DNA from: SAR86 cluster bacterium
GTDB lineage: Bacteria; Pseudomonadota; Gammaproteobacteria; Magnimaribacterales; AG-339-G14
Assembly (NCBI GenBank): GCA_023703675.1
Contig: CP097974.1
Coordinates: 21,288-85,287, forward strand
Length of the DNA: 64,000 nt
Direction: 5' to 3'
Under the pieces are notes generated by a model. The model saw only the letters and a program-made list of their open reading frames with translations, searched no databases and had not been told where the DNA came from. Position numbers and translations under genes: made by a program. Positions 23,499 to 38,830 of the stretch are shown here, piece by piece; within the stretch, counting starts at the first letter, position 1, and every line of letters begins with the position of its first letter.

Positions 23499-25010
23499 TT
23501 ATTTTTTTGATTCTTCTACTAGATTAACAATCTTTTCGTGAATTATGGGCGCAGTATTTGGACCCAAAGACACAACTTCGCCATAAGTTTCTTCATCCTC
23601 TCCATAGATCCAAGGAGCATCATTGTCCCATTCACTTTTTGGGATAATGTACCCAATGGAATCATTCGCTAAATTCACCATCAAGTTAAGTTTGTTGGGA
23701 AAATGACTTCGCAAATGTGGAACTTCCTGAGGAGCCAAGTCGTAATCAGCGCCGTTAGGATTTTCAATGCCCCCAACAGCAATTTCTGGATAGAGTTCTC
23801 CAGGGACGCCGGTAATAGATGCGTCTCCTAATTGTATGAATGCCACTTCGCTGAGATAACGAATAAATGGAGGTATCAGACTAAATTTTAAATCAGAATC
23901 AATAACGCCAAGCAAGGTGCCTATTGAAAGCATGAAGTTTTCTATACCCAACTCTATCTCTATTGAGCGCACTGTAAGAGATGGATTTGGAGATGCCTCG
24001 AAATTGCCGGCATCAAAAGCTTCTATGACGCTACTTGCTAAGCTATATCCATATGCGCGTGCTTTGGCATGACTTGGTTTGGTGAGTGTTTTTTTCAAAA
24101 CAGGATCATAAATTGGATCGGTCGGTCCTGAAGTCATCAAGCCTCCAATATTTCCGGTAAGCCATAACGTGGTACCACCAAGCCCAGGTTTAATTAGCTG
24201 ATCGTCGTAATAAATACCTTCACTAATACCTCTTCTTAAGTAGCCTGCAACGTCAGAAGTTAATTCAAGATTTTTATCCCAAGTAAGTTCGACGTGAATT
24301 CCAAAATTAATCAACGAACCTATGATTGAACCATCGGGGCGATTGAACAAAATCGCTCTGATGTCATCGTCTATCACGATGGGTTTTCGTTTATCTTTAA
24401 TTGGTGTGAGAGGATTTGTTGATATTAAAGCTAGGCTCATTTGGGCGGGTTCCAAGTTATCTATAGCCATTTCCAATGCGCTTATGAAATTTTTTTTAAG
24501 CCGCTCCATATAAACATCGTCAACACCGCTTTTTAAAAATTTTGGACCCCAAAGACCTTGAGTGTCTGGGCCTTCGTGATTATGGGTTGCATGCACCATG
24601 ACGTAATCTAGGCCCCACTCTGCCGGGATTTCCTCACGGACACTAAGAACAAATTTTCGCATTAAACCGATTGTGTCAGCACTTATAATTCCTATCCGAG
24701 TTTGACCGTCATCAATCACCGCCGCTACCGCCATGAGATCATCTTTAACACCCTGGGCGGCTCGTTTATTTTGAAAACCTGCCATCCACACAGCGTCGAA
24801 TTGGTTATTACCGTTGACATCGGTCCACTTATCAATGTCTGGATCAAATTGAGCGTCGTTATTTACATCTTCCCATTCATCGATAATATTGGGCGTAATT
24901 GAGAGCTCAGCAAATCCGACTTGAAATTCGTTTGCATGAAGTTGAACAGATAAAACAATCCCAAACATCGTAAAAATGTAAAGTTTGTTTTTTAAGAAGC
25001 TAGAACTCAT
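23499..25010 (-). CDS. Secreted hydrolase resembling the neutral/alkaline ceramidase N-terminal domain family
   Basis: Signal peptide, AELSITPN near the N-terminus, and a VMVHATHNHEGPD motif analogous to ceramidase ATHTHSGP. The start lies 36 bp downstream of the giant gene's stop. Confidence 0.5.
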   Translation of the reverse strand: MSSSFLKNKLYIFTMFGIVLSVQLHANEFQVGFAELSITPNIIDEWEDVNNDAQFDPDIDKWTDVNGNNQFDAVWMAGFQNKRAAQGVKDDLMAVAAVIDDGQTRIGIISADTIGLMRKFVLSVREEIPAEWGLDYVMVHATHNHEGPDTQGLWGPKFLKSGVDDVYMERLKKNFISALEMAIDNLEPAQMSLALISTNPLTPIKDKRKPIVIDDDIRAILFNRPDGSIIGSLINFGIHVELTWDKNLELTSDVAGYLRRGISEGIYYDDQLIKPGLGGTTLWLTGNIGGLMTSGPTDPIYDPVLKKTLTKPSHAKARAYGYSLASSVIEAFDAGNFEASPNPSLTVRSIEIELGIENFMLSIGTLLGVIDSDLKFSLIPPFIRYLSEVAFIQLGDASITGVPGELYPEIAVGGIENPNGADYDLAPQEVPHLRSHFPNKLNLMVNLANDSIGYIIPKSEWDNDAPWIYGEDEETYGEVVSLGPNTAPIIHEKIVNLVEESKK

Positions 25011-25046: not shown

Positions 25047-28000
25047 TTATTGAAAGTTCCACAACAACTCAAGCGAACAAACTTCTGAGGACAAGAGATC
25101 ATCGTCAGAAATGTTCGAGAAGTCAGATTGGTAAGTAGACTTGCCTTGCCACCTACAACCTATATTAGTCGAGATGTTAGGGGAAATTTGAAGCATCAAA
25201 CCTAAATCAACTTCCCAATTATGAGTTTTCAATCCATCGTCCAGCTCCAATAGATAATTCACACTCGGCCCTTCTAAGTTGTAATACATATTCTGACTAG
25301 AAGTTTTCGAGTAATCAAAGCCATATTCTAGGGTCAAATATGGCATAGCGTTGTATTTTGATTCCGCAAAAAGATAGCTGATATCGGTTCCAATTGATGC
25401 TTTGGCATTTGATAGTGTTAGCTCATCAAATGTCAATGCAGCCTCACCCCCAGTTTCACTATATTTATCAAACTCGGTGTGTGAGCCATCAATTCTAAGA
25501 TAAGGAGAAACCAGCCAGTTGGTATTTTTACTGCTTAATGAACGAACGAAGGCGAGCGATCCAAATAGCTGATTCGCATCTCTTTCTCCTTTCAAGAGCT
25601 CTTTCCTATCTACTCGGTCTGAGCTAAATTCTAATTTACTAACTCCAAAAATAAATTGTAACGATCTATTTCTATTATCGAATTTGCCGTACGTTGAAAG
25701 GCTATAATTTTTGGACTCTACGTGAGAGTTATGGCTTCTGTCTTTTGGCTTGGTTTCTCCTAGGCCCAAGGCAAAACCAAACATATCGCCATCGTCACTA
25801 AATAACTTATCGATACCAATGTGAAAAGATTTTTCATCCAGAACTCTTGGGTTTGGCTTAGTTTTCCCAAGCGTCAATTCTCCAAAATCACCATCAATCC
25901 ATACCGACCAATCGCCAATCACTTCTTTTAGTTCTCCACCAGCCGTCACTTTCACCGGGTCTGATACAAATTCTTTGACGGCTGATTTAAATTGCTCTGT
26001 GTTTTGGAAGCCCTCAGCCGTTTCTTGGTCGTTGTACACATTCGAATTTTCAACATCAGGATTTGTGTCTTCAAAACCTGTGTTTTGATTGTAGCGTTGT
26101 GGTGCAACGATAGGTGCTGAGTAATTAGGATCATCAAAATCCGTTACGCAGAACTTACTGGCATTTGGATCTGTCCACGCTTCTAAATTGTCTGTCAGTG
26201 TATGGGTATAAACCAAATTGTTGCCTAGTAGTGAGTTAGAAGATTCTAAGAGGGTCACAATAACTTTCCTGTCTCCAGGATTGAAACCAAATTTGTCTTG
26301 CGAAATACCATCAACCATAATGAAGGCAGATTTGAGCCCAGCTTCTATATTTAATAAGCCTTCCCCAAGCGAGAAGCTCTCATTGTCTGAGGAGCCGGTA
26401 ATATTAAAATCCACAACGATATCTTCATCCGCAATTTTAGATAAATGCACTTTTATCCTCAGAGCTGAAGCAGTTTTAGGACCACTAGAATTGATCGTAC
26501 AAAACTCTACTATCGGCTCTTCAACAAAATTTATATCAAGTGGCTCCTCAACAAAATCAACATCTGGCTCTTCAACAAAATCACTTTCAGGCTCGCTTTC
26601 TCTTATAGTTTTAACTGAATCAATAATTTTATTTTCAAAGTTGACCCTAAACCCTTGTCGCGAAGATGCCATCATTCGTTTGGAAAGCACATTAACATTT
26701 TGATCCACCCAGCGTGTTGCGATCTGATTCATGGCTTTTGCATTATCAATTACTGGCTGCTTAAGAGTCGGATCAGTCAATTCAATACGAGTTTTAAAAT
26801 TAAATTTTGTTTTGTCACTGATGCCTTCATAAGAATTACCAAAAGCGTCCTCAAATGCAGTATTTTCAATTAGCACGTAATATTCTTTTTCATACTCAAG
26901 ATCCGTGGGAAGGTTAATTTTAATAATCTCTGCCCCACAACCAGTGACGATTTCACTAGATAAGTTGACAGTAAAAGAAAAAGAATTATCGGACGACTTA
27001 ATATCAATTGTGCCTGACTTACAATTTACAACTTTGTTAAACGTCAAAATAATGTCGCTATTTATAGGAACGCCAGTGCTGTTGTCTTGAGGGCTGGTGG
27101 TTGTCAAAATCGGGTTTGTATCATCACCATCTGCCAATATTGTGTGAGTATAAACATAGTCATCACCTAAGGTTGCATTAGTTGGATTAGATAAAGTAAC
27201 GATAATCGTTTCGTTTTCCTCTACGAGTCCATCATCAACAATACCAGTTATTGTAATAGTGCCACTTGTTGCGCCAGCACTAATAGTTAAGGTGCCATTG
27301 GCCATGGTATAATCGGTGCCAGAACCGGTGGCGGTGCCCGTCACAATATAATCAACCGTCACGTCTTGTCCTGAAGCTGCCGATAAATCGACCGTGAGAG
27401 CTTTGGAAGAAACCGATTCAGCTCCATTTGAACTAGTGGTATTGAAATCAACTATTGGCGCGTTGTCATTATCATTAATCGTAAAAGTATGAACAATATC
27501 GTTCCCAAGGGTTGCGTTAACTGGGTTAGACAAAGTGATAATTATTGTTTCATCAGCTTCGTCCGCCGAGTCGTCAATAATCGAAGGGATAAGTATTGTT
27601 CCACTTGTTGCCCCCTCCTCAATAAGCACGCTGCCAGATGACAATGTAAAGTCGATGCCCGATCCGGCAGTACCCCCGGTAACCGCATAATCAACGCCAA
27701 CCTGTTGTTCAGATGCAAAGGGAATAACAACAGTTAATGACCTTGAAACAACTGATTCGGAATCGGCAGAAGCCGTAGTAGAAAATTCTATTGCTGGAAT
27801 GCCGTCATTATCTTTGATGGTATAGGTGTGGACACTATCGCTTCCAAGTACGGCATTGCTTGGTCCCGATAAAGTTATGATCACCGTTTCATTTCCTTCT
27901 ATAGACTCGTCATCAACAATACCAGTTATTGTAATAGTGCCACTTGTTGCACCAGCATTTATGGTCAAGCTGCCATTGGCCAAAGTGTAATCAGTGCCCG

Positions 28001-31000
28001 AGCCTGTAGCTGTGCCTGTCACGGCATAATTCACGGTAACGTTATTACTCGAAGCTGCAGATAAATAAACGGTTAAGGCAACCGATGATACATCTTCAGC
28101 ACCAGATGAACTTGAATTACCAAAATCGATTGAAGGCAGACCATCATCATCTGTAATAGTATAAGTGTGCACGTCATTACTGCCCAGAGTTGCGTTACTA
28201 GGACTAGATAAAGTAACAATTACCGTCTCATCAGCTTCATCCGTGGTGTCATTAATAATATTTGCAATTGTGATAGTGCCTGTCGTTCTACCTGAAGGAA
28301 TGCTTAATGTTCCATTCCCCAAAGTGTAATCTGTACCAGATCCGGTGGCCGTTCCTGTGACTGCATAATCGACTGTTACGGTTTCGCCTGAAGGTCCAGA
28401 TAAATTTACCGTCAGAGCTTTTGAGGATACTGATTCAGCTCCACTTGAGCTGGTAGCATTAAAGTCAATGGTTGGGGTATTGTCATTATCATTAATGGTG
28501 TAAGTATAGATGCTGTCGCCACCCAAAATTGCATTACTTGGATTGGATAGTGTCAGTACAACCGTTTCATTGGCTTCGTCGAGAAAATCGTCAACAATAC
28601 TCGCAATAGTGATCGTTCCAGTTGTAGAACCTGCATTAATCGTAAGAGTCCCACTTCCAAGAGTGTAATCGGTACCAGAGCCAGTGGCAGTTCCGGTCAC
28701 CACATAATCAATCGTGACATCTTGTCCTGAGGCTGCTGATAGATCTACTGTAATGGTTTCGGAAGATGTAGATTCAGCTCCACTTGAACTGGTAGCATTA
28801 AAGTCAATGGTTGGGGTATTGTCGTTATCAGTGATCGTATAAGTATGAACGCTGTCACTTCCCAATGTTGCATTGCTAGGACTTGATAACGTAACAATCA
28901 CTGTTTCATTGGCTTCGTCCAAAGCATCATTGACAATGCTTGCAATGGTGATGGTGCCAGCTGTTGATCCAGCACTTATCGTTAGAGTACCATTGGCCAA
29001 AGTGTAATCGGTGCCCGATCCAGTTGCGGTTCCAGTGACCGCGTAACTAACGGTTACGTTTTGACTCGACTCAGCAGATAAGTCAACGGTTAAACCCGCA
29101 GATGAAACTGATTCAGCTCCGCTCGAACTGGTGGTATTGAAGTCAATGGTTGGGGTGTTTTCATCATCATTAATAGTATAAGTGTGAGCACTGTCACTAC
29201 CCAAGGTTGCATTGCTAGGATTTGACAAAGTAACAATGACCGTCTCATTTGGTTCATCTATGGAATCATCAATGATCCCTGCAATTGTAATAGTTCCAGT
29301 TGTTGCACCTGCACTTATAGTGAGAGTTCCATTGGCTAGTGTGTAATCGGTACCAGAGCCAGTGGCAGTTCCGGTCACGGTATAATCAACTGTCACGTCC
29401 TGACTTGAAGCAGCAGATAAATCAACAGCCAAATTGGCAGAAGAAACTGATTCGGCATCACTTGAACTCGTAGCATTGAAGTCAACTACTGGAGGATTGT
29501 CATCGTCATTAATAGTATAGGTATGAACGCTGTCACTGCCCAAAGTCGCATTGTTTGGATTCGACAAAGTGACAATGACTGTCTCATTGGCCTCGTCAGC
29601 CGCATCATCAATAATCCCTGCAATTGTAATAGTTCCAGTTGTTGCACCTGCACTGATGGTTAGGGTGCCATTGGCTAAAGTGTAATCGGTACCAGAGCCA
29701 GTGGCAGTCCCAGTCACTGCGTAATCAATGGTCACGTCTTGTCCTGAAGCTGCCGATAAATCGACTGTAAGAGGTTTGGAAGAAACTGATTCAGCCCCGC
29801 TCGAACTGGTTTCATTAAAATCAACCACTGGAGCATCGTCATTGTCAGTGATGGTGTAAGTATGAGCATCATCACTTCCCAAGGTTGCATTGTTAGGACT
29901 TGATAGAGTAACGATCACCGTCTCATTAGCTTCATCGATGGAGTCGTTAACAATGCTACCGATTGTAATAGTCCCGCTTGATGCACCTGCACTAATGGTT
30001 AAGGTGCCATTGGCCAAAGTGTAATCGGTACCGAAGCCAGTAGCAGTTCCAGTCACCGCGTAATTAACAGTGACGCTTTGCCCTGAAATTGCCGATAAAT
30101 CTACGGTCAAATCCGCAGAAGAAACTGATTCAGCTCCACTCGAACTGGTTGCATTAAAATCAATTACTGGAGGATTGTCATTGTCAGTAATGGTGTAAGT
30201 GTGAACGCTATCACTTCCTAAGGTTGCATTGCTTGGACTTGATAGAGTAACGATCACCGTCTCATTAGACTCATCGATTGAGTCATCGATAATGCTGGAT
30301 ATATCGATGGTTCCAGATGTTGCGCCCGCACTAATGGTTAAGGTGCCATTGGCTAGAGAGTAATCGGTCCCAGAGCCAGTGGCTGTCCCCGTCACCGCAT
30401 AATTAACGGTCACGTCTTGTCCCGAAGCTGCTGATAAATCTACTGTTAAAGATTTAGAAGAAACTGATTCTGCTCCGCTCGAACTAGTAGTATTGAAATC
30501 GACTACTGGCGGATTGTCGTTGTCATTGATCGTGTAAGTGTGAACAAGAATAGAGCCCGCATCCGCGTTTGATGGATTAGATAAGGTGATAACGACAGTT
30601 TCGTTCAACTCATCCAAAGAGTCATTGATAATACTGCCAATTGTAATTGTCGTTGATGTCGAGCCGGCTGCAATAGTAGCAGTACCATTGGCCAAAGTGT
30701 AATCGGTACCCGATCCAGTGGCTGTACCCGTCACCGCATAATTAACAGTTACATCTTGCCCCGAGGTTGCCGATAGATTGATCGCGATGGCTTTAGAAGA
30801 AGTAGATTCAGCTCCGCTTGAAGTGGCATCAGCAAAAGATATATTCCTGTCTCCTACTGGCTCCAAAATTGTGAACGTGTGAACATTATCACTGCCTAAC
30901 GTTGCATTACTGGGGCTTGATAGAGTAAGAATGACGGTCTCACTTCCTTCGGTAACTCCATCATCGACAATTCCAGCTATTGTAATAGTTCCTGTTGTCG

Positions 31001-34000
31001 ATCCTGCATTTATGGTGAGAGACGCATCGGCTAAAGTGTAATCGGTGCCTGATCCAGTTGCAGTTCCAGTTACCGCGTAATTAACGGTCACGTTTTGTGC
31101 TGAAACTGCGGATAAATTGACTGTAACAGCTTTGGTAGAAACGGATTCTGCCCCGCTTGAACTAGTCAACTCAAAATCAACCACTGGAGCATTGTCATTG
31201 TCTGTGATGGTATAAGTATGAGCATCATCACTGCCTAATGTGGCATTGTTAGGACTTGATAAAGTAACAATGATTGTCTCATTAGCTTCATCTAGAGAGT
31301 CATCAACAATACTGCCAATTGTAATTGTCGTTGATGTTGATCCGGCTGCGATAGTCGCAGTGCCATTAGCCAAAGTGTAATCAGTACCCGATCCAGTTGC
31401 TGTTCCAGTTACCGCATAATTAACGGTCACGGTTTGACTAGAAGCTGCCGATAAATCCACTGTAAGAGCTTTTGACGATACCGATTCAGTACCATTCGAA
31501 CTGGTTTCATTAAAATCAACTACTGGAGGATTGTCATCATCTGTGATGGTGTAAGTATGAGCATCATCACTGCCTAAAGTGGCATTGGTAGGACTTGATA
31601 GAGTAACGATTACCGTTTCATTGGCTTCGTCAAGAGAGTCGTTAACAATTCCTGCAATGGTGATCGTGCCAGACGTCGACCCAGCACTTATGGTTAAGGT
31701 GCCATTGGCCAAAGTATAATCTGTGCCAGAACCAGTGGCCGTTCCGGTCACCGCATAATCGACGGTCACGTCTTGTCCTGAAGCTGCCGATAAATCCACT
31801 GTAAGAGCTTTTGACGATACAGATTCATTTCCATTTGAACTGGTTTCATTAAAATCAACCACTGGCGGATTGTCATTGTCAGTAATGGTGTAAGTGTGAA
31901 CATCGTCACTGCCCAAAGTCGCATTGCTTGGATTCGACAAAGTAACGACTACAGTTTCATTGGCTTCATCCAAAGCATCATTAATAATGCTCGCAATTGT
32001 AATAGTGCCAGATGTTGCGCCTGCGCTAATGGTTAGGGTGTTATTGGCCAAAGTGTAATCAGTACCCGAACCAGTGGCAGTTCCGGTCACGGCAAAATCA
32101 ACAGTCACGGTTTGACTGGATGCTGCTGATAAATCTACTGTAAGAGCTTTGGAAGAAACTGATTCAGCTCCGGTCGAGCTAGTAATGTTGAAGTCAACTA
32201 CTGGCGGATTGTCATTGTCAGTAATTGTGTAAGTATGAACGCTGTCACTTCCTAACGTGGCATTGCTTGGATTCGATAAAGTAACGATGACTGTCTCATT
32301 CAATTCGTCTAGACCATCATCGACAATCCCTGCAATTGTAATAGTTCCAGATGTCGCGCCTGCACTTATGGTAAGAGTGTCATCGGCTAGTGTGTAATCA
32401 GTACCAGAGCCGCTTGCAGTTCCTGTCACTACATAATCAACAGTAACGTTTTGAATGGATGAAGCAGATAAATCTACCGTAATGGCTTTGGATGATACTG
32501 ATTCAGCTCCACTGGAACTCGTGGTATTGAAATCAACTACTGGCGGATTGTCATTGTCAGTAATCGTGTATGTATGAGCATCATCACTGCCTAAAGTGGC
32601 GTTGATAGGGCTCGATAAGGTAACGATCACCGTTTCATTAGCCTCATCAATTGAGTCATCGACAATCCCTGCAATTGTTATAGTTCCTGATGTTGCGCCA
32701 GCACTAATAGTAAGCGTTCCGTTCGCCAAAGTGTAATCGGTGCCAGAGCCTGTAGCCGTTCCGGTCACAGCATAATCAACGGTTACGTCTTGTCCTGAGG
32801 CTGCCGACAAATCGACCGTAAGAGGTTTAGAAGATACCGATTCGGCTCCACTCGAACTAGTAGTGTTGAAGTCAACCACCGGCGGATTGTCATTGTCAGT
32901 AATGGTGTAGGTATGAACGCTGTTGCTACCCAAAGTCGCATTGCTAGGGCTTGATAAAGTTAGAATGACGGTTTCATTGGTTTCGTCTAAAGAGTCATTG
33001 ACAATGCTAGCAATAGTAATCGTCGTTGATGTAGAACCAGCTGTAATAGTTGCAGTGCCATTAGCAAGAGTGTAATCGGTACCAGAGCCAGTCGCGGTTC
33101 CGGTCACGGCATAATTTACTGTCACGTTTACGTTCGATGCAGCAGATAAATCTACCGTGATGGCCTTAGAAGCAACAGTCTCAGCTCCATTCGAGCTGAT
33201 AGTGTTGAAGTCAACTACTGGCGGATTGTCATTGTCATTTATTGTGTAAGTATGAACGCTATCATTTCCCAAAGTGGCATTGCTAGGATTCGATAAAGTA
33301 ACGATGACCGTCTCATTGGCTTCATCAAAAGAATCGTTAACAATACTGCCAATCGTAATAGTCCCACTTGTTGCGCCAGCGTTTATCGTTAAGGTGCCAT
33401 TGGCTAGGGTGTAATCGGTGCCGGAGCCAGTGGCAGTTCCGGTCACCACGTAATCGACGGTCACGTTCTGGCTTGACGCAAATGATAAATCCACAGTTAA
33501 TGCTGCAGAGGAAACCGATTCGGCTCCATTAGAGCTAGTAATGTTAAAATCAATAGTTGGATTGGCTGCTCTAGTTATAACTCGGATAAAGTCACCTGGC
33601 TTACCGTTTTTTGCACCAAACCTTAATGTTCTCTTGTCAGAGCCAATAGAGACCCAATCACCAGATGTAGTTGAGGCTGTTGTACTGCTGCCATAATGAA
33701 CATGGTTTTCTGTCTGTCTTGCACTGAAACCACTATTGCCCGAGTTTGGATAGACTGCATTATCTTTATCGACTTCGGGAAAGGCGACAGTCATCGAAGG
33801 GTCTGTCCAGTAGCCCAATATTTCGTTTTCAAATACTATCTGACCAATCTTTGAGGTTCGATCGGTGCCACTGTTGTGATCGTCGTTGATAAAAACTAGG
33901 TAAGAATTAGCTGGGGTATTCCCAAAATGAATCGAAGTTGCACTTCCAGTTGGCACGTAACCAAGACCACTAAAGTTATAGGTAGTGGTGCATTGAGAGA

Positions 34001-34247
34001 CAGTTTGGCCTTGTTGACAAATATTTGTTCTCTCAGGAACAATTATAAAGTCTTCTCCCGAAGAAGATCTTTGGCTGCCGTTTTTGTCTTGTTTTCTAGC
34101 CTTTAAATTAGTGGCACCAGGAATAATTTCTACATATGAATTAACGCTCGCAATACCATTTGCGTTGGCTTGTGTAGATAAAAATCCAGCAAATACTAAA
34201 ATTACTCCAATAAAGACGCACTTAAATAAATCCTGTCTTACTTTCAT
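25047..34247 (-). CDS. Giant (3066 aa) surface protein. Order: signal peptide, unknown N-domain, 19 tandem Calx-beta-like units, Ig-like (SbsA_Ig-type) domain, acidic DFVEEP microrepeat, one degenerate Calx-beta unit, C-terminal autotransporter-type beta-barrel
   Basis: Repeats carry VT(V)DYAVTGTATGSGTDYTL ... GTITI..IVDDS.DE.NETV.VTLS.P.NATLG. The C-terminal ~300 aa has alternating beta-strand patterns (GFALGLG, YSLSTYGKF, PYLTLEYGF) and ends in LELLWNF. Confidence 0.85.
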   Translation of the reverse strand: MKVRQDLFKCVFIGVILVFAGFLSTQANANGIASVNSYVEIIPGATNLKARKQDKNGSQRSSSGEDFIIVPERTNICQQGQTVSQCTTTYNFSGLGYVPTGSATSIHFGNTPANSYLVFINDDHNSGTDRTSKIGQIVFENEILGYWTDPSMTVAFPEVDKDNAVYPNSGNSGFSARQTENHVHYGSSTTASTTSGDWVSIGSDKRTLRFGAKNGKPGDFIRVITRAANPTIDFNITSSNGAESVSSAALTVDLSFASSQNVTVDYVVTGTATGSGTDYTLANGTLTINAGATSGTITIGSIVNDSFDEANETVIVTLSNPSNATLGNDSVHTYTINDNDNPPVVDFNTISSNGAETVASKAITVDLSAASNVNVTVNYAVTGTATGSGTDYTLANGTATITAGSTSTTITIASIVNDSLDETNETVILTLSSPSNATLGSNSVHTYTITDNDNPPVVDFNTTSSSGAESVSSKPLTVDLSAASGQDVTVDYAVTGTATGSGTDYTLANGTLTISAGATSGTITIAGIVDDSIDEANETVIVTLSSPINATLGSDDAHTYTITDNDNPPVVDFNTTSSSGAESVSSKAITVDLSASSIQNVTVDYVVTGTASGSGTDYTLADDTLTISAGATSGTITIAGIVDDGLDELNETVIVTLSNPSNATLGSDSVHTYTITDNDNPPVVDFNITSSTGAESVSSKALTVDLSAASSQTVTVDFAVTGTATGSGTDYTLANNTLTISAGATSGTITIASIINDALDEANETVVVTLSNPSNATLGSDDVHTYTITDNDNPPVVDFNETSSNGNESVSSKALTVDLSAASGQDVTVDYAVTGTATGSGTDYTLANGTLTISAGSTSGTITIAGIVNDSLDEANETVIVTLSSPTNATLGSDDAHTYTITDDDNPPVVDFNETSSNGTESVSSKALTVDLSAASSQTVTVNYAVTGTATGSGTDYTLANGTATIAAGSTSTTITIGSIVDDSLDEANETIIVTLSSPNNATLGSDDAHTYTITDNDNAPVVDFELTSSSGAESVSTKAVTVNLSAVSAQNVTVNYAVTGTATGSGTDYTLADASLTINAGSTTGTITIAGIVDDGVTEGSETVILTLSSPSNATLGSDNVHTFTILEPVGDRNISFADATSSGAESTSSKAIAINLSATSGQDVTVNYAVTGTATGSGTDYTLANGTATIAAGSTSTTITIGSIINDSLDELNETVVITLSNPSNADAGSILVHTYTINDNDNPPVVDFNTTSSSGAESVSSKSLTVDLSAASGQDVTVNYAVTGTATGSGTDYSLANGTLTISAGATSGTIDISSIIDDSIDESNETVIVTLSSPSNATLGSDSVHTYTITDNDNPPVIDFNATSSSGAESVSSADLTVDLSAISGQSVTVNYAVTGTATGFGTDYTLANGTLTISAGASSGTITIGSIVNDSIDEANETVIVTLSSPNNATLGSDDAHTYTITDNDDAPVVDFNETSSSGAESVSSKPLTVDLSAASGQDVTIDYAVTGTATGSGTDYTLANGTLTISAGATTGTITIAGIIDDAADEANETVIVTLSNPNNATLGSDSVHTYTINDDDNPPVVDFNATSSSDAESVSSANLAVDLSAASSQDVTVDYTVTGTATGSGTDYTLANGTLTISAGATTGTITIAGIIDDSIDEPNETVIVTLSNPSNATLGSDSAHTYTINDDENTPTIDFNTTSSSGAESVSSAGLTVDLSAESSQNVTVSYAVTGTATGSGTDYTLANGTLTISAGSTAGTITIASIVNDALDEANETVIVTLSSPSNATLGSDSVHTYTITDNDNTPTIDFNATSSSGAESTSSETITVDLSAASGQDVTIDYVVTGTATGSGTDYTLGSGTLTINAGSTTGTITIASIVDDFLDEANETVVLTLSNPSNAILGGDSIYTYTINDNDNTPTIDFNATSSSGAESVSSKALTVNLSGPSGETVTVDYAVTGTATGSGTDYTLGNGTLSIPSGRTTGTITIANIINDTTDEADETVIVTLSSPSNATLGSNDVHTYTITDDDGLPSIDFGNSSSSGAEDVSSVALTVYLSAASSNNVTVNYAVTGTATGSGTDYTLANGSLTINAGATSGTITITGIVDDESIEGNETVIITLSGPSNAVLGSDSVHTYTIKDNDGIPAIEFSTTASADSESVVSRSLTVVIPFASEQQVGVDYAVTGGTAGSGIDFTLSSGSVLIEEGATSGTILIPSIIDDSADEADETIIITLSNPVNATLGNDIVHTFTINDNDNAPIVDFNTTSSNGAESVSSKALTVDLSAASGQDVTVDYIVTGTATGSGTDYTMANGTLTISAGATSGTITITGIVDDGLVEENETIIVTLSNPTNATLGDDYVYTHTILADGDDTNPILTTTSPQDNSTGVPINSDIILTFNKVVNCKSGTIDIKSSDNSFSFTVNLSSEIVTGCGAEIIKINLPTDLEYEKEYYVLIENTAFEDAFGNSYEGISDKTKFNFKTRIELTDPTLKQPVIDNAKAMNQIATRWVDQNVNVLSKRMMASSRQGFRVNFENKIIDSVKTIRESEPESDFVEEPDVDFVEEPLDINFVEEPIVEFCTINSSGPKTASALRIKVHLSKIADEDIVVDFNITGSSDNESFSLGEGLLNIEAGLKSAFIMVDGISQDKFGFNPGDRKVIVTLLESSNSLLGNNLVYTHTLTDNLEAWTDPNASKFCVTDFDDPNYSAPIVAPQRYNQNTGFEDTNPDVENSNVYNDQETAEGFQNTEQFKSAVKEFVSDPVKVTAGGELKEVIGDWSVWIDGDFGELTLGKTKPNPRVLDEKSFHIGIDKLFSDDGDMFGFALGLGETKPKDRSHNSHVESKNYSLSTYGKFDNRNRSLQFIFGVSKLEFSSDRVDRKELLKGERDANQLFGSLAFVRSLSSKNTNWLVSPYLRIDGSHTEFDKYSETGGEAALTFDELTLSNAKASIGTDISYLFAESKYNAMPYLTLEYGFDYSKTSSQNMYYNLEGPSVNYLLELDDGLKTHNWEVDLGLMLQISPNISTNIGCRWQGKSTYQSDFSNISDDDLLSSEVCSLELLWNFQ
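27120..33563 (-). repeat. Coding tandem repeat array: 19 units of 339 nt (113 aa), Calx-beta-like
   Basis: Period counted from the translated sequence. The first unit starts at about aa 229 (NPTIDFN) and the last ends at about aa 2376 (ILADGDD). Long near-identical DNA stretches recur, e.g. gtgccattggccaaagtgtaatcggt. Confidence 0.85.
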
Positions 34248-35048: not shown

Positions 35049-35687
35049 ATGTACAGAAACTTCTTTTTAATAAGCCTTATTTTATTGTCGTCCAACCTTA
35101 TTTACTCAGCGAGTGAAGAAGTAGAGGTCAAAGCAGTAAAAAGAGGCGACCCCATGGCTGGTTCTGAACTAGTTGCAACTTGTACCGGTTGTCACGGCGC
35201 GGATGGAAATAGTGTTGTGGGTCAGTGGCCAACACTTGCCGGACAAAGAGAAAGTTATACTTTGGCACAATTGATTCATGTACAAAAAGGCGAGCGCATG
35301 ATCGAATCAATGATGGGACTTCTTGATAATTACTCAGAGGATCAACTAAGAGATATTGCAGCATATTATGCTGCGCAAGATACTAAAGTTGGTCAGGCCG
35401 ATAGTACCAACTTTGAATTGGGGCAAAGAATCTATCGAGCTGGAAATTTATCTGGAGGAGTGCCTGCCTGTACAGGATGTCACGGACCTCAAGGAAAAGG
35501 GGTGGAATCAGCTGGGTATCCTAAATTGAGTGGCCAAAAAGCTGAATACGTGGTCACAAGTTTAGTGGCTTATAAAACTGGGGAGCGAGTGCACAGTAGC
35601 AATGCAAAAATTATGCAGGGAATTGCTGCCCGATTAACTACTGAGGAAATCAGAGCGGTGGCAAATTATGTATCCGGACTTTATTAA
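35049..35687 (+). CDS. Cytochrome c4 (diheme)
   Basis: Signal peptide and two CxxCH motifs (CTGCHG twice), each with a distal Met region. Confidence 0.9.
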   Translation: MYRNFFLISLILLSSNLIYSASEEVEVKAVKRGDPMAGSELVATCTGCHGADGNSVVGQWPTLAGQRESYTLAQLIHVQKGERMIESMMGLLDNYSEDQLRDIAAYYAAQDTKVGQADSTNFELGQRIYRAGNLSGGVPACTGCHGPQGKGVESAGYPKLSGQKAEYVVTSLVAYKTGERVHSSNAKIMQGIAARLTTEEIRAVANYVSGLY

Positions 35688-36291
35688 AAAAACTTCTTTA
35701 ATTATATTTATAACCTTATTTGCCTCTCTGGGGTTTACCGAAGACTATCAAGAAGGCAGACACTACCAACTAATTGAGCCACTGCCAACAAGGGATTCGG
35801 AGAAAATTGAGGTAATAGAATTCTTTTGGTTTGGATGCGGTCATTGTTTTAGTCTTGAAGCATTGCTCGGTGATTGGAAGTCAGAAGCAAGCCAAGACGT
35901 AGATTTTTTTAGACTCCCAGTTGTATGGAATTCACAAACCAAAACTCACGCTAAATTATTTTTCGCCGCAGAAACTTTAGAAGTTCCAGAAGCAATAGGT
36001 GGAATTTTCGGAGCAATTCACTACAGTAGAAAAATGATGACTTCTGACAAAGAAGTAATACCTTTTTTTCAAGGATATGGGGTTGATGAGGAGCAATACT
36101 TGGCTGTGACTAACTCATTTGGATTGAAAAATAATTTAAGAAAAGCCGAGTTATTTGCCTTTAAATACGGTATAAAGGGCGTCCCTGCATTTATTGTGAA
36201 CGGGAAGTACAAGGTTTCTGCGACTAGAGAACTTGGTACGGAAGAGCTTTTAGATGTAGTGGATTATTTAATCGCTAAAGAAAGAAGTTAG
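35668..36291 (+). CDS. dsbA: Thiol:disulfide interchange protein DsbA
   Basis: Signal peptide, FWFGCGHCFSLE active site (CxxC) and a GVPAFIVNGKY cis-Pro loop region. Confidence 0.9.
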   Translation: MYPDFIKKTSLIIFITLFASLGFTEDYQEGRHYQLIEPLPTRDSEKIEVIEFFWFGCGHCFSLEALLGDWKSEASQDVDFFRLPVVWNSQTKTHAKLFFAAETLEVPEAIGGIFGAIHYSRKMMTSDKEVIPFFQGYGVDEEQYLAVTNSFGLKNNLRKAELFAFKYGIKGVPAFIVNGKYKVSATRELGTEELLDVVDYLIAKERS

Positions 36292-36293
36292 TA

Positions 36294-37118
36294 ATGAGTA
36301 ATTTTAGATCCAACCTGTTTATTCCAGGGCATACCTTAGACCGTCTAGAAAGAGGGCAAAAAAGCAATGCAGACGCGATCATTGTGGATTTGGAGGATGG
36401 TTGTCCAGAAGCAGAAAAACTTGTTGCTAGAGAAACTTTAATCGAGTTGCTCAAAGAAAATACTTTTACCAAGCCTTTATTCGTTCGCGTAAATGATGCG
36501 ATGGAATCAATCGGGAGAGAGGATATAGATTCTATTTCTCCATATCAAGAACAAATCGAGGCAATTATTTTGCCTAAAACTCAAAGTTTCGATTTTCTAG
36601 CCACACTTGCTCCAATGATAGATTTCAAAAATAAATTAGTGCCTTTGATAGAGACTTCTAGAGCTATAGAAACCGTTACTCAAATTGCCGCCTTTAAAGA
36701 CGTAGTGGGATTATTTTTTGGAGCTGCGGACGCCTCTGCTAGTTTGGGTTGCAAATTAGCATGGGAACCACTGTTGTATGCAAGACAAAGAGTTGTGCTT
36801 GCGGCATCGATGTTTAATCTTTTCACGATAGACGCACCATATTTCTACATTGATAAAATGGCCGGCTTGAAAGAAGAGGCAGAGAAAGTAAAAAATTTAG
36901 GTTTCACTGGTAAAGCCGCTATTCATCCAGATCAAATCGATCACATTAATGAAGCTTTTTCTCCTTCTGCAGAAGAAAAAGAAGAAGCAAAAAAAGTTTT
37001 AGAGGAATATCAAAAATCAGGTGGTGGCGCCATTAAAGTGGATGGCCAGATGATCGACGAGCCAATCGCTGAAGCAATGCGTTTGAAAATTACTCTTGGA
37101 GAAGAAGAGAAGGACTAA
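36294..37118 (+). CDS. HpcH/HpaI aldolase - citrate lyase beta (CitE)-like acyl-CoA lyase (citramalyl-/malyl-CoA lyase type)
   Basis: RSNLFIPG, IIVDLEDG, PLIETSRAIE, GAADASASLG, GKAAIHPDQI and a C-terminal G.MIDEP region; 274 aa. Confidence 0.8.
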   Translation: MSNFRSNLFIPGHTLDRLERGQKSNADAIIVDLEDGCPEAEKLVARETLIELLKENTFTKPLFVRVNDAMESIGREDIDSISPYQEQIEAIILPKTQSFDFLATLAPMIDFKNKLVPLIETSRAIETVTQIAAFKDVVGLFFGAADASASLGCKLAWEPLLYARQRVVLAASMFNLFTIDAPYFYIDKMAGLKEEAEKVKNLGFTGKAAIHPDQIDHINEAFSPSAEEKEEAKKVLEEYQKSGGGAIKVDGQMIDEPIAEAMRLKITLGEEEKD

Positions 37119-37120
37119 AA

Positions 37121-37636
37121 ATGGCTGGGACAAAAGATCTAGGTGACGGAAGATTCAGAGAATCTCACGGCCGATATTTTGAAGATTTTGAGGTTGGGCA
37201 CGTTTATGAACATCGGCCTGGTAGAACCATCACACAGTCAGATAATACTTGGTTCACTTTACTTACCATGAATACCCATCCGCTTCATTTCGACGAGGAA
37301 TATGGGAAGGCAACTGAATTTGGTCAGACTTTAGTCAATAGTACTTTTACGGTTGCTACGATGGTTGGCATGAGTGTTAGCGACGTTAGTCAAAAGGCCA
37401 TTGCGAATTTGGGTTGGACTGACATCGTTTTACCCAAACCCTTATTTGTGGGCGATACGCTTTATGCTGAATCCGAAGTGGTAGAAAAGAGACTTTCAGA
37501 ATCAAGGGAAAACTGTGGGATAGTAACCGTGAAAACTACCGGCAAGAATCAGAATGGCGAGATCGTTGCTACTTTTCTAAGATCCGCGTTAATTCCTACT
37601 CGAGGAAATGCGGTAGACGATAAAATTAATTACTAA
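37121..37636 (+). CDS. MaoC-like (single hot-dog) enoyl-CoA hydratase
   Basis: 171 aa. Carries HPLHFDEEYGKATEFGQTLVNSTF, and the C-terminal strands are typical of MaoC dehydratases. Confidence 0.8.
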   Translation: MAGTKDLGDGRFRESHGRYFEDFEVGHVYEHRPGRTITQSDNTWFTLLTMNTHPLHFDEEYGKATEFGQTLVNSTFTVATMVGMSVSDVSQKAIANLGWTDIVLPKPLFVGDTLYAESEVVEKRLSESRENCGIVTVKTTGKNQNGEIVATFLRSALIPTRGNAVDDKINY

Positions 37637-37639
37637 TTT

Positions 37640-38830
37640 ATGTCAGCGCCTCTAAAGGACATTAAAGTTTTAGACTTGACCCACATGCTTGCAGGGCCTT
37701 ATGCGAGTATGATCATGGCTGATTTGGGAGCTGAAGTTGTAAAAGTTGAGCCACCTGGGAAGGGAGAAATAACCAGAGGACTCTACAAAGACGATCCAGA
37801 TTATTCATTGGATGGAGTCAGTCCATATCACATCACTCTGGCAAGAAATAAAAAGAGTCTTACATTGGATTTAAAACAGCAAAAAGGAAAAGATATTTTT
37901 TATGAATTAGTAAAAAAATTTGATGTCGTTTTGGATAATTTCAGTTCCGGGGTAACCGAACGACTGGGGATAGATTTTGATCAGCTAAAAATTCACAATT
38001 CAAAAATAATCACTTGTTCGATCAGCGGTTTTGGAAAAGGCGAAGCGGATCGACCCGCTTACGACCAAATCCTACAAGCTTATGGAGGGGGCATGTCCAT
38101 CACAGGTGAAAATGAAGATCATCCGGTCAGAGCCGGTGTTCCAATTGCAGATCTGTCATCCGGTATGTTCAGTATCATTGGAATTTTAAGCGCTTTGCAA
38201 AAAAGAGATCGAGAAGGTGTTGGAGATCATATCGACATCTCCATGTTGGATTGCCAGGTAAGCTTACTTACTTACATGGCTACTATGAACAAAATCTCTG
38301 GAATTGAACCTAAGCCAATTGGCAATCAACATTTTTTACACGTCCCTTACAATTCTTATAAAACTTCAGATGGGTTTATTATTATCACCGTAGTGCATGA
38401 AGATTTTTGGCCTAATTTAGTTGAGGCCCTTGATTTAGAAGAATTTTCAGGAGAGCAATACAAAACAGTCCAAGGCAGACTTGCAGCAAGAGCTGAGATT
38501 GATCAAGCAATTGCAGTGAGGCTTTTAGAAAAACCAAGCAAGTTCTGGTTAGAACTTTTGGCAAAGCATAGAGTTCCATCTGGACCCATCAATTCGATGA
38601 GTGACGCTCTGGAAGATCCTTTGATTAAAAAAAGAAACATGGTCGTCGACTTAAAACAGCCTTCTGGATCAATCGCTAAGGTTCCTGGAAATCCAATTAA
38701 ATTAGATAGTTTTGAGGAAGATTACAAACCGGCTCCCGAGTTAGGAAATAATACCGACGAAGTTTTATTAAATTATTTAGAGTTGGATGCAAAACAACTG
38801 GAACAGCTAAAAAAAGAAAAAATTATTTAA
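37640..38830 (+). CDS. Family III CoA-transferase (CaiB/BaiF-type)
   Basis: IKVLDLTHMLAGPYASMIMADLGAEVVKVEPP N-terminus and a conserved Asp region (VPIADLSSG); 396 aa. Confidence 0.85.
   Translation: MSAPLKDIKVLDLTHMLAGPYASMIMADLGAEVVKVEPPGKGEITRGLYKDDPDYSLDGVSPYHITLARNKKSLTLDLKQQKGKDIFYELVKKFDVVLDNFSSGVTERLGIDFDQLKIHNSKIITCSISGFGKGEADRPAYDQILQAYGGGMSITGENEDHPVRAGVPIADLSSGMFSIIGILSALQKRDREGVGDHIDISMLDCQVSLLTYMATMNKISGIEPKPIGNQHFLHVPYNSYKTSDGFIIITVVHEDFWPNLVEALDLEEFSGEQYKTVQGRLAARAEIDQAIAVRLLEKPSKFWLELLAKHRVPSGPINSMSDALEDPLIKKRNMVVDLKQPSGSIAKVPGNPIKLDSFEEDYKPAPELGNNTDEVLLNYLELDAKQLEQLKKEKII

What the first reader, a model, noticed from the sequence alone, without database searches (positions are those of the whole stretch)
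25047..34247. 3066-aa Calx-beta repeat protein that appears to be exported as a classical (type Va) autotransporter
Seen directly: a cleavable-looking signal peptide, a ~225-aa N-domain I cannot place, and 19 tandem 113-aa units. The units carry the Calx-beta hallmarks (VTGTATGSGTDY ... acidic IVDDS.DE.NETV Ca-binding-like segment ... VTLS.P.NATLG). After them come an Ig-like SbsA-type segment (PILTTTSPQDNSTGVPINSDIILTFNK), an acidic microrepeat and one degenerate Calx-beta unit. The last ~300 aa show alternating-hydrophobic strands (GFALGLG, YSLSTYGKF, LFGSLAFV, PYLTLEYGF, WEVDLGLMLQ) and end in L-W-N-F, the aromatic terminus typical of autotransporter/OMP barrels. From established knowledge, type Va passengers are normally beta-helical and far shorter. 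Giant Calx-beta/Ig-repeat adhesins are normally type I secretion substrates with C-terminal RTX signals. A ~2700-aa beta-sandwich passenger fused to an autotransporter barrel would therefore be an unusual secretion architecture. Inference: extracellular Ca-dependent folding of the repeats could act as the ratchet for translocation.
Basis: partly seen in the sequence, partly recalled or inferred. Interest (0 to 1): 0.72.

Follow-up and report, generated by a model that had tools for sequence, protein, structure and literature searches.

The report
Giant Calx-beta autotransporter of SAR86
A 3,066-residue surface protein of the abundant ocean bacterium SAR86 joins 20 calcium-binding-type beta-sandwich repeats to an autotransporter barrel; reviews tie this export design to beta-helical cargo, but it is widespread and unstudied in sequence databases.

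Summary
ORF 25047..34247 (-) encodes 3,066 aa: a Sec-type signal peptide, an unplaced 197-aa N-domain, exactly 19 Calx-beta units at a strict 113-aa period, a Big_5 (SbsA-type) Ig domain, an acidic microrepeat and a 20th degenerate unit. It ends in a C-terminal domain that passes Pfam Autotransporter (98 bits, cutoff 26). That domain folds (AF2, pLDDT 79.6) into 12 long strands. Its best structural matches are all type Va barrels (EstA, AaaA, EspP, NalP, BrkA). There are no RTX repeats, and no T1SS genes among the 32 window ORFs scanned, which include every one of 313 aa or more. The identical protein occurs in independent SAR86 single-cell assemblies, and orthologues carry 12-19 units.

The type Va reading is supported, but its rarity is overstated. 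The 52 barrel relatives outside SAR86 that I scanned, up to 3,018 aa and including cultured Dyella, Stenotrophomonas and Janthinobacterium, almost all carry tandem Ig-like, cadherin or Calx-beta passengers. None matched a beta-helix passenger family. Size is not unprecedented either (Fap2, ~400 kDa). I found no paper describing this class.

Two points remain open. The pore-spanning helix is unresolved. A Ca2+ gradient ratchet is doubtful because the periplasm equilibrates with seawater Ca2+.

The parts
34161..34247 (-). Sec-type signal peptide, aa 1-29 (MKVRQDLFKCVFIGVILVFAGFLSTQANA|NG)
   Evidence: Read directly from the translation. The equivalent N-terminus is conserved in homologues. No dedicated predictor was run.
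33570..34160 (-). N-terminal, membrane-distal domain of unknown fold, aa 30-226, with a close Cys pair (C77/C86)
   Evidence: No Pfam, NCBIfam or PDB match. 82 marine homologues have this domain followed by Calx-beta or cadherin repeats.
27129..33569 (-). 19 tandem Calx-beta units of exactly 113 aa each, aa 227-2373
   Evidence: Pfam PF03160, E=6e-203, 19 stretches. Strict 113-aa spacing. 339-bp TRF period. The Ca2+-ligand positions of NCX1 CBD1 align with GTDY, DDSxDExNE and DNDN.
26790..27125 (-). Big_5 (SbsA-type) bacterial Ig-like domain, aa ~2375-2486, with Cys pair C2409/C2437
   Evidence: Pfam PF13205, 48 bits, E=2e-12, full-length profile match.
26613..26753 (-). Conserved helix-like module, aa ~2499-2545 (PVIDNAKAMNQIATRWVDQNVNVLSKRM)
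   Evidence: Same residue pattern as the pre-barrel motif of P0035 and of the Ig-passenger autotransporter clade consensus. Helical character is inferred, not modelled.
26499..26594 (-). Acidic microrepeat (DFVEEP-type, 8 aa x ~3)
   Evidence: TRF 24-bp period, 3.2 copies; translation.
26187..26519 (-). 20th, degenerate Calx-beta unit, aa 2577-2687. The Ca2+-ligand motifs are lost and conserved C2583/C2700 bracket it.
   Evidence: 61.8 bits, E=6e-21 against an HMM of the 19 units. Not detected by Pfam. Cysteines conserved in P0002 and P0012.
25911..26186 (-). Acidic 92-aa linker, aa 2688-2779. It includes the conserved segment EQFKSAVKEFVSDPVKVTAGGELKEVIGD directly before strand 1, which is the candidate pore-traversing segment.
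   Evidence: pI 4.05, GRAVY -0.82. Conserved across SAR86 homologues. AF2 gives a short helix at aa 2750-2761, but pLDDT is below 50.
25050..25910 (-). 12-stranded type Va autotransporter beta-barrel, aa 2780-3066, ending LELLWNFQ. Family-specific Cys at C3031 (strand 11) and C3057 (strand 12).
   Evidence: PF03797 98.1 bits, profile 27-252 of 255. TIGR01414 49.5 bits. AF2 pLDDT 79.6, pTM 0.75, 12 long strands. Foldseek top hits are EstA (E=4e-22), AaaA, EspP, NalP and BrkA (TM 0.79).
23499..25010 (-). Downstream 503-aa gene of unknown function with a signal-peptide-like N-terminus; possibly co-transcribed
   Evidence: 36-bp gap, same strand, no terminator-like site between the genes. The same neighbour (83-89% identity) follows the AT gene in L001, L003, L004 and L005. 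Only a sub-threshold ceramidase hit; no PDB or NCBIfam match.

Best explanation
This is a classical (type Va) autotransporter of a SAR86-cluster gammaproteobacterium. Its passenger is not a beta-helix but a string of about 21 beta-sandwich domains.

Proposed steps:
1. **Export (inferred).** The Sec system exports the precursor and the signal peptide is cut after Ala29.
2. **Barrel insertion (the fold is predicted here; the BAM step is inferred from the family).** The C-terminal 287 residues are inserted by BAM as a 12-stranded barrel.
3. **Translocation (inferred).** The passenger is threaded outward as a hairpin, C-terminal end first. The first domain to emerge would be the Ca2+-ligand-less, Cys-bracketed degenerate Calx unit. 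It could act as a folding nucleus in place of a beta-helical autochaperone. Domain-by-domain folding outside would then prevent back-sliding, as shown for the Ig-like domains of intimin.
4. **Finished product (inferred).** Seawater Ca2+ bound at the conserved acidic sites between units stiffens the 19 Calx-beta domains into a fibre of roughly 85-95 nm. The fibre stays anchored by its barrel and presents the conserved N-terminal domain at its tip.

Most likely role: an adhesin or ligand-capturing fibre (particles, phytoplankton surfaces or polymers) for a small, streamlined planktonic cell. The gene takes up about 0.7% of a 1.3-Mb SAR86 genome.
For: **Barrel identity**
- PF03797 98.1 bits against a cutoff of 26, and TIGR01414 49.5 bits against 16.
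- The AF2 model built on a diverse alignment has pLDDT 79.6, pTM 0.75 and 12 long strands.
- The ten best Foldseek PDB hits are all type Va barrels: EstA, AaaA, EspP, NalP, BrkA.

**Topology and sequence features**
- Only 6 Cys in the 2,750-aa passenger. Two pairs are local (77/86 and 2409/2437), as is typical of T5SS cargo (PMC8151025).
- No GGxGxD RTX motifs.
- No ABC, MFP or TolC genes among the 32 ORFs scanned, which include every window ORF of 313 aa or more.
- Ca2+-ligand residues of NCX1 CBD1 are conserved in the units. The passenger has pI 4.05.

**The gene is real and conserved**
- The identical protein is on 5 contigs.
- Orthologues with the same domain order occur in 20 genome loci, 18 labelled SAR86, with 12-19 units in the full-length copies.
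- Odd units 8, 9 and 18 have positional orthologues in other genomes.

**Precedent for the design**
- Of the 52 non-SAR86 barrel relatives scanned, 50 match PF03797. Almost all carry Big_9, He_PIG, cadherin, TIG, fn3 or Calx-beta passengers. No beta-helix passenger family appears in the match lists, which show all 24 matched families for A6 and 25 of 26 for A7.
- Folding of Ig-like domains energises intimin secretion (PMC6555100).
Against: - Nothing here shows surface exposure or expression.
- The pore-spanning alpha-helix expected in type Va is not resolved: aa 2740-2778 have pLDDT below 50, and only 12 residues are helical.
- The protein ends in Q after the usual terminal F. One orthologue subgroup ends in L or I.
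- The barrel is translated last, so about 20 independently foldable domains must wait in a periplasm whose Ca2+ should equal that of seawater. How they stay unfolded is unexplained.
- The conserved pair C2583/C2700 is 117 residues apart. If oxidised in the periplasm, it would form a large loop.
- The adhesin role is inferred from architecture only. The N-domain has no recognisable fold or ligand.
- One complete SAR86 genome (L014) lacks the 5' part of the gene.
Confidence: 0.78

Rival explanations
1. Same export route, different job. The fibre is not an adhesin. It is a dense, acidic, Ca2+-stiffened surface coat or spacer that keeps phages, grazers' receptors or other cells at a distance. Repeat number would vary under diversifying selection.
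For: Repeat number differs among strains: 12, 18, 19 and 19 units in the full-length orthologues. The passenger is extremely acidic and rich in Thr and Ser. The N-domain matches no known binding fold.
Against: The N-terminal tip domain is well conserved (64-93% identity among SAR86-type homologues, with 36 invariant columns in the alignment). That suggests a specific function rather than mere bulk. Idiosyncratic units are positionally conserved between genomes, so the array is not turning over fast.
Confidence: 0.2
2. The barrel only anchors the protein in the outer membrane. The repeat region is not threaded through it: it either stays periplasmic or reaches the surface by another machine (T2SS, TAM-dependent or unknown).
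For: No confident in-pore helix. The conserved pre-barrel helical module lies 240 aa upstream of strand 1, with a folded domain in between. Independently folding beta-sandwich domains are awkward cargo for C-to-N hairpin export.
Against: A 2,750-aa, roughly 90-nm passenger does not fit a periplasm about 25 nm wide (my own knowledge). The barrel is a full type Va translocator by sequence and predicted fold. A whole clade couples this barrel type to Ig-like passengers, which argues for co-adapted export. Inverse autotransporters export Ig-like repeats through the same kind of barrel (PMC6555100).
Confidence: 0.06
3. It is a type I secretion (RTX/LapA/SiiE-like) giant adhesin, and the C-terminal similarity to autotransporters is misleading.
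For: Giant Calx-beta and Ig-repeat adhesins characterised so far are T1SS substrates (PMC7616799, PMC12153261).
Against: An N-terminal Sec signal peptide is present. There are no GGxGxD repeats. The C-terminus is a 12-strand barrel, not a T1SS signal. No ABC, MFP or TolC gene was found among the 32 ORFs scanned in 64 kb.
Confidence: 0.02
4. It is an assembly chimera or pseudogene, with the repeat array mis-joined to an unrelated barrel gene.
For: Most homologues in metagenomes are fragments cut at contig ends. The complete genome L014 has a 5'-truncated copy.
Against: The identical 3,066-aa ORF is on 5 contigs, including 506-kb and 142-kb contigs of separate assemblies. Four other genomes have the same domain order in uninterrupted frames. 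Units are only about 74% identical, so they are easy to assemble.
Confidence: 0.01

Closest known systems
EstA of Pseudomonas aeruginosa (PDB 3kvn), type Va autotransporter
   Same: Closest solved barrel by sequence (E=1.4e-3) and by predicted fold (Foldseek E=4e-22). It is also a type Va protein whose passenger is not a beta-helix and is not cleaved off (PMC6555100).
   Different: EstA carries a single GDSL lipase domain and is 632 aa long. Here the passenger is 2,750 aa of tandem beta-sandwich domains. The EstA linker helix is resolved; here the equivalent segment is not.
Fap2 of Fusobacterium nucleatum, giant type Va adhesin
   Same: A type Va adhesin of comparable size (~400 kDa). It forms a long rod with the binding site at the membrane-distal tip and has a long linker (about 200 residues) before the barrel (PMC12397386).
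   Different: The Fap2 rod is a 47-nm beta-helix. Here the rod would be about 21 separate beta-sandwich domains, probably stiffened by Ca2+ and about twice as long for fewer residues.
Intimin/invasin family, type Ve (inverse) autotransporters
   Same: A 12-stranded barrel with a passenger made of tandem Ig-like domains and a distal binding domain. Sequential folding of the domains drives export (PMC6555100, PMC8151025).
   Different: The domain order is inverted: in Ve the barrel is N-terminal and made first, and the passenger exits N-to-C. Here the barrel is C-terminal and belongs to PF03797, so the passenger is fully made before its translocator.
RTX giant adhesins secreted by T1SS (LapA, SiiE, Marinomonas ice-binding adhesin)
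   Same: Giant proteins with Ca2+-binding beta-sandwich extender repeats, Calx-beta among them, that project a binding module from the cell (PMC7616799, PMC12153261).
   Different: Those have no Sec signal. They have C-terminal RTX repeats and a dedicated ABC/MFP/TolC system, and they are retained by an N-terminal plug. None of these features is found here.
BapP of Pseudoalteromonas tunicata
   Same: A marine gammaproteobacterial adhesin with a predicted Sec signal, an N-terminal domain of about 226 aa, then tandem Calx-beta/Big_9 repeats. Biofilm formation depends on Ca2+ (PMC12153261).
   Different: BapP has no autotransporter barrel and lies next to a putative T1SS. Its N-domain is a predicted 5-bladed propeller.
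Uncharacterised 'putative Ig domain-containing / autotransporter domain-containing' proteins of Dyella, Luteibacter, Stenotrophomonas rhizophila (WP_051598844.1), Janthinobacterium and Jeongeupia
   Same: Nearest barrel relatives outside SAR86. They share the overall plan of tandem beta-sandwich passengers (up to 21 He_PIG domains and 3,018 aa; 5 of 22 giants include Calx-beta), a conserved helical pre-barrel motif and a PF03797 barrel.
   Different: Barrel identity is only about 25-35% among the distant relatives for which identity was reported. Their passengers are mostly He_PIG/Big_9 rather than a uniform Calx-beta array. They lack the SAR86 N-domain and the inserted degenerate unit before the barrel. 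None appears to have been studied experimentally.

Membership tests
Type Va (classical) autotransporter | C-terminal translocator matching the Autotransporter beta-domain profile above the curated threshold | tested here: met
   PF03797 98.1 bits (cutoff 26), profile 27-252 of 255. TIGR01414 49.5 bits (cutoff 16).
Type Va (classical) autotransporter | Monomeric 12-stranded beta-barrel | tested here: met
   The AF2 model (pLDDT 79.6, pTM 0.75) has 12 long strands at aa 2780-3065. The ten best Foldseek PDB matches are all type Va barrels, with TM up to 0.79. This is a prediction, not an experimental structure.
Type Va (classical) autotransporter | N-terminal Sec signal peptide, with the passenger N-terminal to the barrel in one polypeptide | tested here: met
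   The n-, h- and c-regions with A-N-A at residue 29 are read from the sequence. The domain order is confirmed by Pfam. No dedicated predictor was run.
Type Va (classical) autotransporter | Alpha-helical linker filling the barrel pore directly before strand 1 | tested here: inconclusive
   A conserved 32-residue segment precedes strand 1. AF2 gives only a 12-residue helix (aa 2750-2761) with pLDDT below 50.
Type Va (classical) autotransporter | C-terminal beta-signal ending in an aromatic residue | tested here: inconclusive
   The protein ends L-E-L-L-W-N-F-Q, so F is penultimate. Close relatives end in F, and one subgroup ends in L or I.
Type Va (classical) autotransporter | Absence of POTRA domains (types Vb/Vd), of an N-terminal barrel (Ve) and of a 4-strand trimeric anchor (Vc) | tested here: met
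   No POTRA or other subtype profile was reported in the whole-protein or regional scans. The barrel is C-terminal and complete.
Type Va (classical) autotransporter | Beta-helical passenger with a C-terminal autochaperone (typical of the family, not strictly defining) | tested here: not met
   The passenger is Calx-beta x19, Big_5 and a degenerate Calx unit, with no beta-helix or autochaperone family hit. Exceptions such as EstA are accepted family members (PMC6555100, PMC5767081).
Type Va (classical) autotransporter | BAM-dependent translocation of the passenger to the cell surface | not testable with these tools
   This needs expression, protease shaving and BamA depletion.
Calx-beta domain (PF03160) | Profile match above threshold, and conservation of the acidic Ca2+-coordinating segments | tested here: met
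   E=6e-203 with 19 stretches. The alignment to NCX1 CBD1 places GTDY, DDSxDExNE and DNDN on the GSDY, DDDIFEEDE and DDD ligand segments. Ca2+ binding itself was not tested.
T1SS RTX giant adhesin (LapA/SiiE type) | C-terminal RTX nonapeptide repeats or a T1SS signal, and no Sec signal peptide | tested here: not met
   Zero GGxGxD motifs. A Sec-type signal peptide is present. The C-terminus is a barrel.
T1SS RTX giant adhesin (LapA/SiiE type) | Dedicated ABC transporter, membrane fusion protein and TolC encoded nearby | tested here: not met
   All 32 ORFs scanned are housekeeping, metabolic or of unknown function; they include every window ORF of 313 aa or more. The rest of the genome could not be searched.
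Type Ve inverse autotransporter (intimin/invasin) | N-terminal barrel followed by a C-terminal Ig-like passenger | tested here: not met
   The barrel is at the C-terminus and belongs to PF03797.

The most novel reading that the evidence does not exclude
SAR86 is one of the most abundant and most genome-streamlined bacteria of the surface ocean and is usually regarded as free-living. In this reading it keeps a conserved, roughly 90-nm Ca2+-stiffened surface fibre and spends about 0.7% of its genome on it. The fibre is exported by a distinct, widespread and unstudied subclass of type Va autotransporters whose barrels are specialised for tandem beta-sandwich cargo. These would work by a domain-by-domain C-to-N folding ratchet started by a Ca2+-independent membrane-proximal domain, without a beta-helix or a classical autochaperone. 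They would need some special way to keep Ig-like domains unfolded in a Ca2+-replete periplasm.
Probability: 0.3. Interest if true: 0.7.

Novelty: new variant of a known kind. Interest (0 to 1): 0.5.

Why it matters
**For secretion biology.** Type Va export models rest on beta-helical passengers that fold vectorially from a C-terminal autochaperone. Here, and in the database clade uncovered around it, the cargo is up to about 25 independently folding beta-sandwich domains attached to a barrel that is made last. This raises testable questions. How is periplasmic folding prevented? What replaces the autochaperone? What sits in the pore? The reviews and the passenger survey I could read do not list Ig-like passengers for type Va (PMC6555100, PMC5767081).

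**For marine microbiology.** A conserved giant surface fibre in SAR86 suggests attachment or ligand capture in a lineage thought of as planktonic. It also gives a concrete target for metaproteomics and cryo-ET.

**Practical point.** Such genes break short-read assemblies. Most homologues are fragments, two contigs carrying this gene sit in non-SAR86 MAG bins, and one 'complete' genome has a truncated copy.

Tried and rejected
- **First AF2 run.** The alignment (A1) held only SAR86-type homologues at 64-78% identity plus two distant ones. The model was poor (pLDDT 49.5). A second run with distant Ig-passenger relatives added (A3) reached 79.6.
- **N-domain.** A PDB profile search with the N-domain alignment hit only the Calx-beta part. 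Pfam and NCBIfam gave nothing.
- **Spurious Pfam hits.** The whole-protein hits to bPH_4, DUF4929 and DUF2057 lie inside the repeats with 0-1 stretches. I treat them as spurious.
- **Promoter and terminator scans** around both gene ends were no better than shuffles.
- **Literature searches** found no description of this protein or class: Calx-beta + autotransporter, SAR86 + autotransporter, SAR86 + Calx-beta, SAR86 + adhesin, PF03797 + cadherin, He_PIG + autotransporter.
- **T1SS reading** rejected.
- **Assembly-artefact reading** rejected.
- **orf503** gave no PDB or NCBIfam match.
- **Horizontal transfer.** I considered whether the higher GC of the repeat region (0.44 against about 0.38-0.40 nearby) marks transfer. 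It is explained more simply by the Thr/Ser/Gly/Ala/Asp-rich composition. The gene also sits among core genes (polA, engB, dsbA, dsbB).
Full report
**1. What is in the sequence**

The minus-strand ORF 25047..34247 is real and encodes 3,066 aa. It reads in this order:
- **aa 1-29.** A Sec-type signal peptide, MKVRQDLFKCVFIGVILVFAGFLSTQANA|NG. This is my direct reading; no predictor was available.
- **aa 30-226.** A domain with no Pfam, NCBIfam or PDB relative. It is nonetheless conserved in 82 marine metagenome proteins, where Calx-beta or cadherin repeats follow it.
- **aa 227-2373.** Exactly 19 Calx-beta units. Every anchor motif is 113 aa from the next. The DNA period is 339 bp. Pfam PF03160 gives E=6e-203 with 19 stretches.
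- **aa ~2375-2486.** A Big_5 Ig-like domain (48 bits).
- **aa ~2499-2545.** A conserved helix-like module.
- **Window 26499..26580.** An 8-aa acidic microrepeat.
- **aa 2577-2687.** A 20th unit that Pfam misses but that scores 61.8 bits against an HMM of the other 19. Its Ca2+-ligand motifs are gone.
- **aa 2688-2779.** A 92-aa acidic linker.
- **aa 2780-3066.** The C-terminal barrel domain.

The units average 74% pairwise identity. The atypical units 8, 9 and 18 have positional counterparts in other genomes, so the array is old and stable. When one unit is aligned to the Ca2+-binding domain CBD1 of the Na+/Ca2+ exchanger, GTDY, DDSxDExNE and DNDN fall on the exchanger's ligand segments.

**2. 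Is the C-terminus an autotransporter barrel?**

Yes, as far as computation can tell.
- PF03797 scores 98.1 bits (cutoff 26) over profile positions 27-252 of 255. TIGR01414 scores 49.5 bits (cutoff 16).
- By sequence, the only solved relative is EstA.
- A first AF2 model from a shallow alignment was poor (pLDDT 49.5).
- After a profile search recruited distant relatives, a second model reached pLDDT 79.6 and pTM 0.75. It has 12 long strands between aa 2780 and 3065.
- The ten best Foldseek PDB matches are all type Va barrels: EstA (E=4e-22), AaaA, EspP, NalP and BrkA (TM 0.79 on the target). Hbp and AIDA-I follow further down, while 14-strand and other barrels such as OmpG score lower TM.

The expected pore-filling helix is not resolved. 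The 40 residues before strand 1 have pLDDT below 50, and only aa 2750-2761 are helical. The segment SDPVKVTAxGELKExIGDW directly before strand 1 is nevertheless conserved.

**3. Alternatives to type V**

- There are no GGxGxD RTX motifs, and the passenger has only 6 cysteines in 2,750 residues. T5SS proteins are generally Cys-poor, with close pairs where cysteines occur (PMC8151025).
- The 32 ORFs I scanned include every window ORF of 313 aa or more. They encode housekeeping or metabolic proteins (polA, dsbB, rmuC, an EngB-like GTPase, cytochrome c, DsbA, PEPCK, transketolase and others) or proteins of unknown function. No ABC exporter, membrane fusion protein or TolC was found.
- The rest of the genome could not be searched.

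**4. Provenance and conservation**

- The barrel profile found 20 genome loci. Eighteen are labelled SAR86 single-cell or metagenome-assembled genomes, with 63-75% identity.
- The identical 3,066-aa protein is called on 5 contigs, including 506-kb and 142-kb contigs of two NCBI assemblies with the same neighbours. The ORF is therefore not an assembly artefact.
- Full-length orthologues have the same domain order with 12, 18, 19 and 19 units.
- Most database homologues are fragments cut at contig ends.
- A 503-aa gene of unknown function follows the AT gene in the window and in its four closest relatives.

**5. How unusual is it?**

Against the literature it is unusual.
- Reviews describe type Va passengers as usually beta-helical, with EstA-like exceptions. 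They assign Ig-like repeat passengers to the inverse (Ve) class (PMC6555100, PMC8151025).
- A survey of T5aSS passengers lists beta-helical and alpha-helical classes only (PMC5767081).
- My searches found no paper on Calx-beta or Ig-like type Va passengers, or on a SAR86 autotransporter.

Against the sequence databases it is not unusual.
- An exhaustive profile search with the barrel found 6,163 cluster representatives at E<=1e-3.
- Among the 30 best non-SAR86 hits, all 30 have PF03797, 27 have Big_9, 25 He_PIG, 18 Cadherin_5, 9 TIG and 8 fn3. No beta-helix passenger family appears.
- Among 22 giant relatives (1,597-3,018 aa), 21 have He_PIG (up to 21 copies in one protein) and 5 have Calx-beta.
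- These proteins come from cultured Dyella, Luteibacter, Stenotrophomonas rhizophila, Janthinobacterium and Jeongeupia. They are auto-annotated as 'putative Ig domain-containing' or 'autotransporter domain-containing' proteins.
- Size is not exceptional either: Fap2 is a type Va adhesin of about 400 kDa (PMC12397386).

**6. Mechanism**

*Shown by computation:* the signal peptide, the beta-sandwich passenger with conserved Ca2+-ligand positions, and the 12-strand type Va barrel.

*Inferred from the family:* Sec export, BAM-assisted barrel insertion, and hairpin export of the passenger C-terminal end first.

*My inferences:*
- The degenerate, Ca2+-ligand-less unit bracketed by conserved C2583/C2700 emerges first and may nucleate folding, taking the place of a beta-helical autochaperone.
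- Successive folding of the units outside then rectifies movement, as shown for intimin's Ig-like domains (PMC6555100).
- With about 4-4.5 nm per domain (my own knowledge), 21 domains give a fibre of about 85-95 nm with the conserved N-domain at the tip. That suggests adhesion or ligand capture.

Unlike the cytosol-to-outside step in T1SS, the periplasm equilibrates with external Ca2+ through porins (my own knowledge). How about 20 foldable domains stay export-competent while the C-terminal barrel is still being translated is therefore a real unknown. It applies to the whole clade.

A second oddity concerns the conserved helical motif. In the Ig-passenger clade it lies about 70-100 aa before strand 1. 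Here it lies 240 aa upstream, with the microrepeat, the degenerate unit and the acidic linker inserted between it and the barrel.

**7. Verdict**

- It is best filed as a new variant of a known kind: a Calx-beta-array member of a large, uncharacterised subclass of type Va autotransporters with beta-sandwich passengers.
- Interest is moderate (0.5). The protein's identity is clear and pipelines already label relatives as autotransporters. What is open is the export mechanics of this subclass and the role of a giant surface fibre in SAR86, and both are directly testable.

Noticed in passing
window 23499..25010 (-): A 503-aa ORF with a signal-peptide-like N-terminus lies 36 bp downstream of the autotransporter gene on the same strand. 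The same gene (83-89% identity) follows the AT gene in L001, L003, L004 and L005. It has only a sub-threshold ceramidase N-terminal hit (22 bits against a cutoff of 32) and no PDB or NCBIfam match. It may be a functional partner.
   Followed up: partly
L001 (CAXGZX010000043.1) and L007 (PAEG01000098.1): Contigs carrying a SAR86-type autotransporter gene (L001 also carries the orf503 neighbour) are filed under a 'Candidatus Poseidoniales archaeon' MAG and an 'Acidimicrobiaceae' MAG. An outer-membrane autotransporter in those bins most likely reflects mis-binned contigs.
   Followed up: no
L014 5033..11137 (CP097973.1, complete SAR86 genome): The orthologous ORF starts inside a Calx-beta unit (GTG start, 2,008 aa) and has no signal peptide or N-domain upstream. 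An aquaporin-like gene precedes it. This is either a truncated gene or a collapsed repeat assembly.
   Followed up: partly
window 25050..25160 (aa 3031 and 3057) and aa 2583/2700: There are SAR86-family-specific conserved cysteine pairs. One pair sits on adjacent predicted barrel strands 11 and 12 and could form an intra-barrel disulfide. The other brackets the degenerate Calx unit, 117 residues apart. DsbA and DsbB genes lie nearby in the window (35668..36291 and 20048..20596).
   Followed up: no
window 25047..25055: The protein ends WNFQ-stop (TTT CAA TAA). The close relatives whose C-terminus was read end at the Phe (for example L001-L006). A more distant SAR86 subgroup ends ...LELMLSL or ...LELMLSI, with no terminal aromatic residue.
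   Followed up: partly
window 36294..38830 (+): A three-gene cluster: an HpcH/HpaI aldolase-citrate lyase family protein, a MaoC-type mesaconyl-CoA hydratase and a family III CoA-transferase. This suggests a C4/C5-dicarboxylate (itaconate, mesaconate or malyl-CoA type) pathway.
   Followed up: no
window 11283..13328 (-): A 681-aa protein gives a very strong full-length DUF3604 match (720 bits). Its function is unknown.
   Followed up: no
window 26613..26753 (aa 2499-2545): The helix-like motif PVIDNAKAMNQIATRWVDQNVNVLSKRM matches a conserved pre-barrel motif of the Ig-passenger autotransporter clade (consensus DPSxDxEVxGLxxAQxxAxRRFAxxQIxNFxxRLExLH). Here it lies 240 aa from the barrel instead of about 70-100 aa.
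   Followed up: partly
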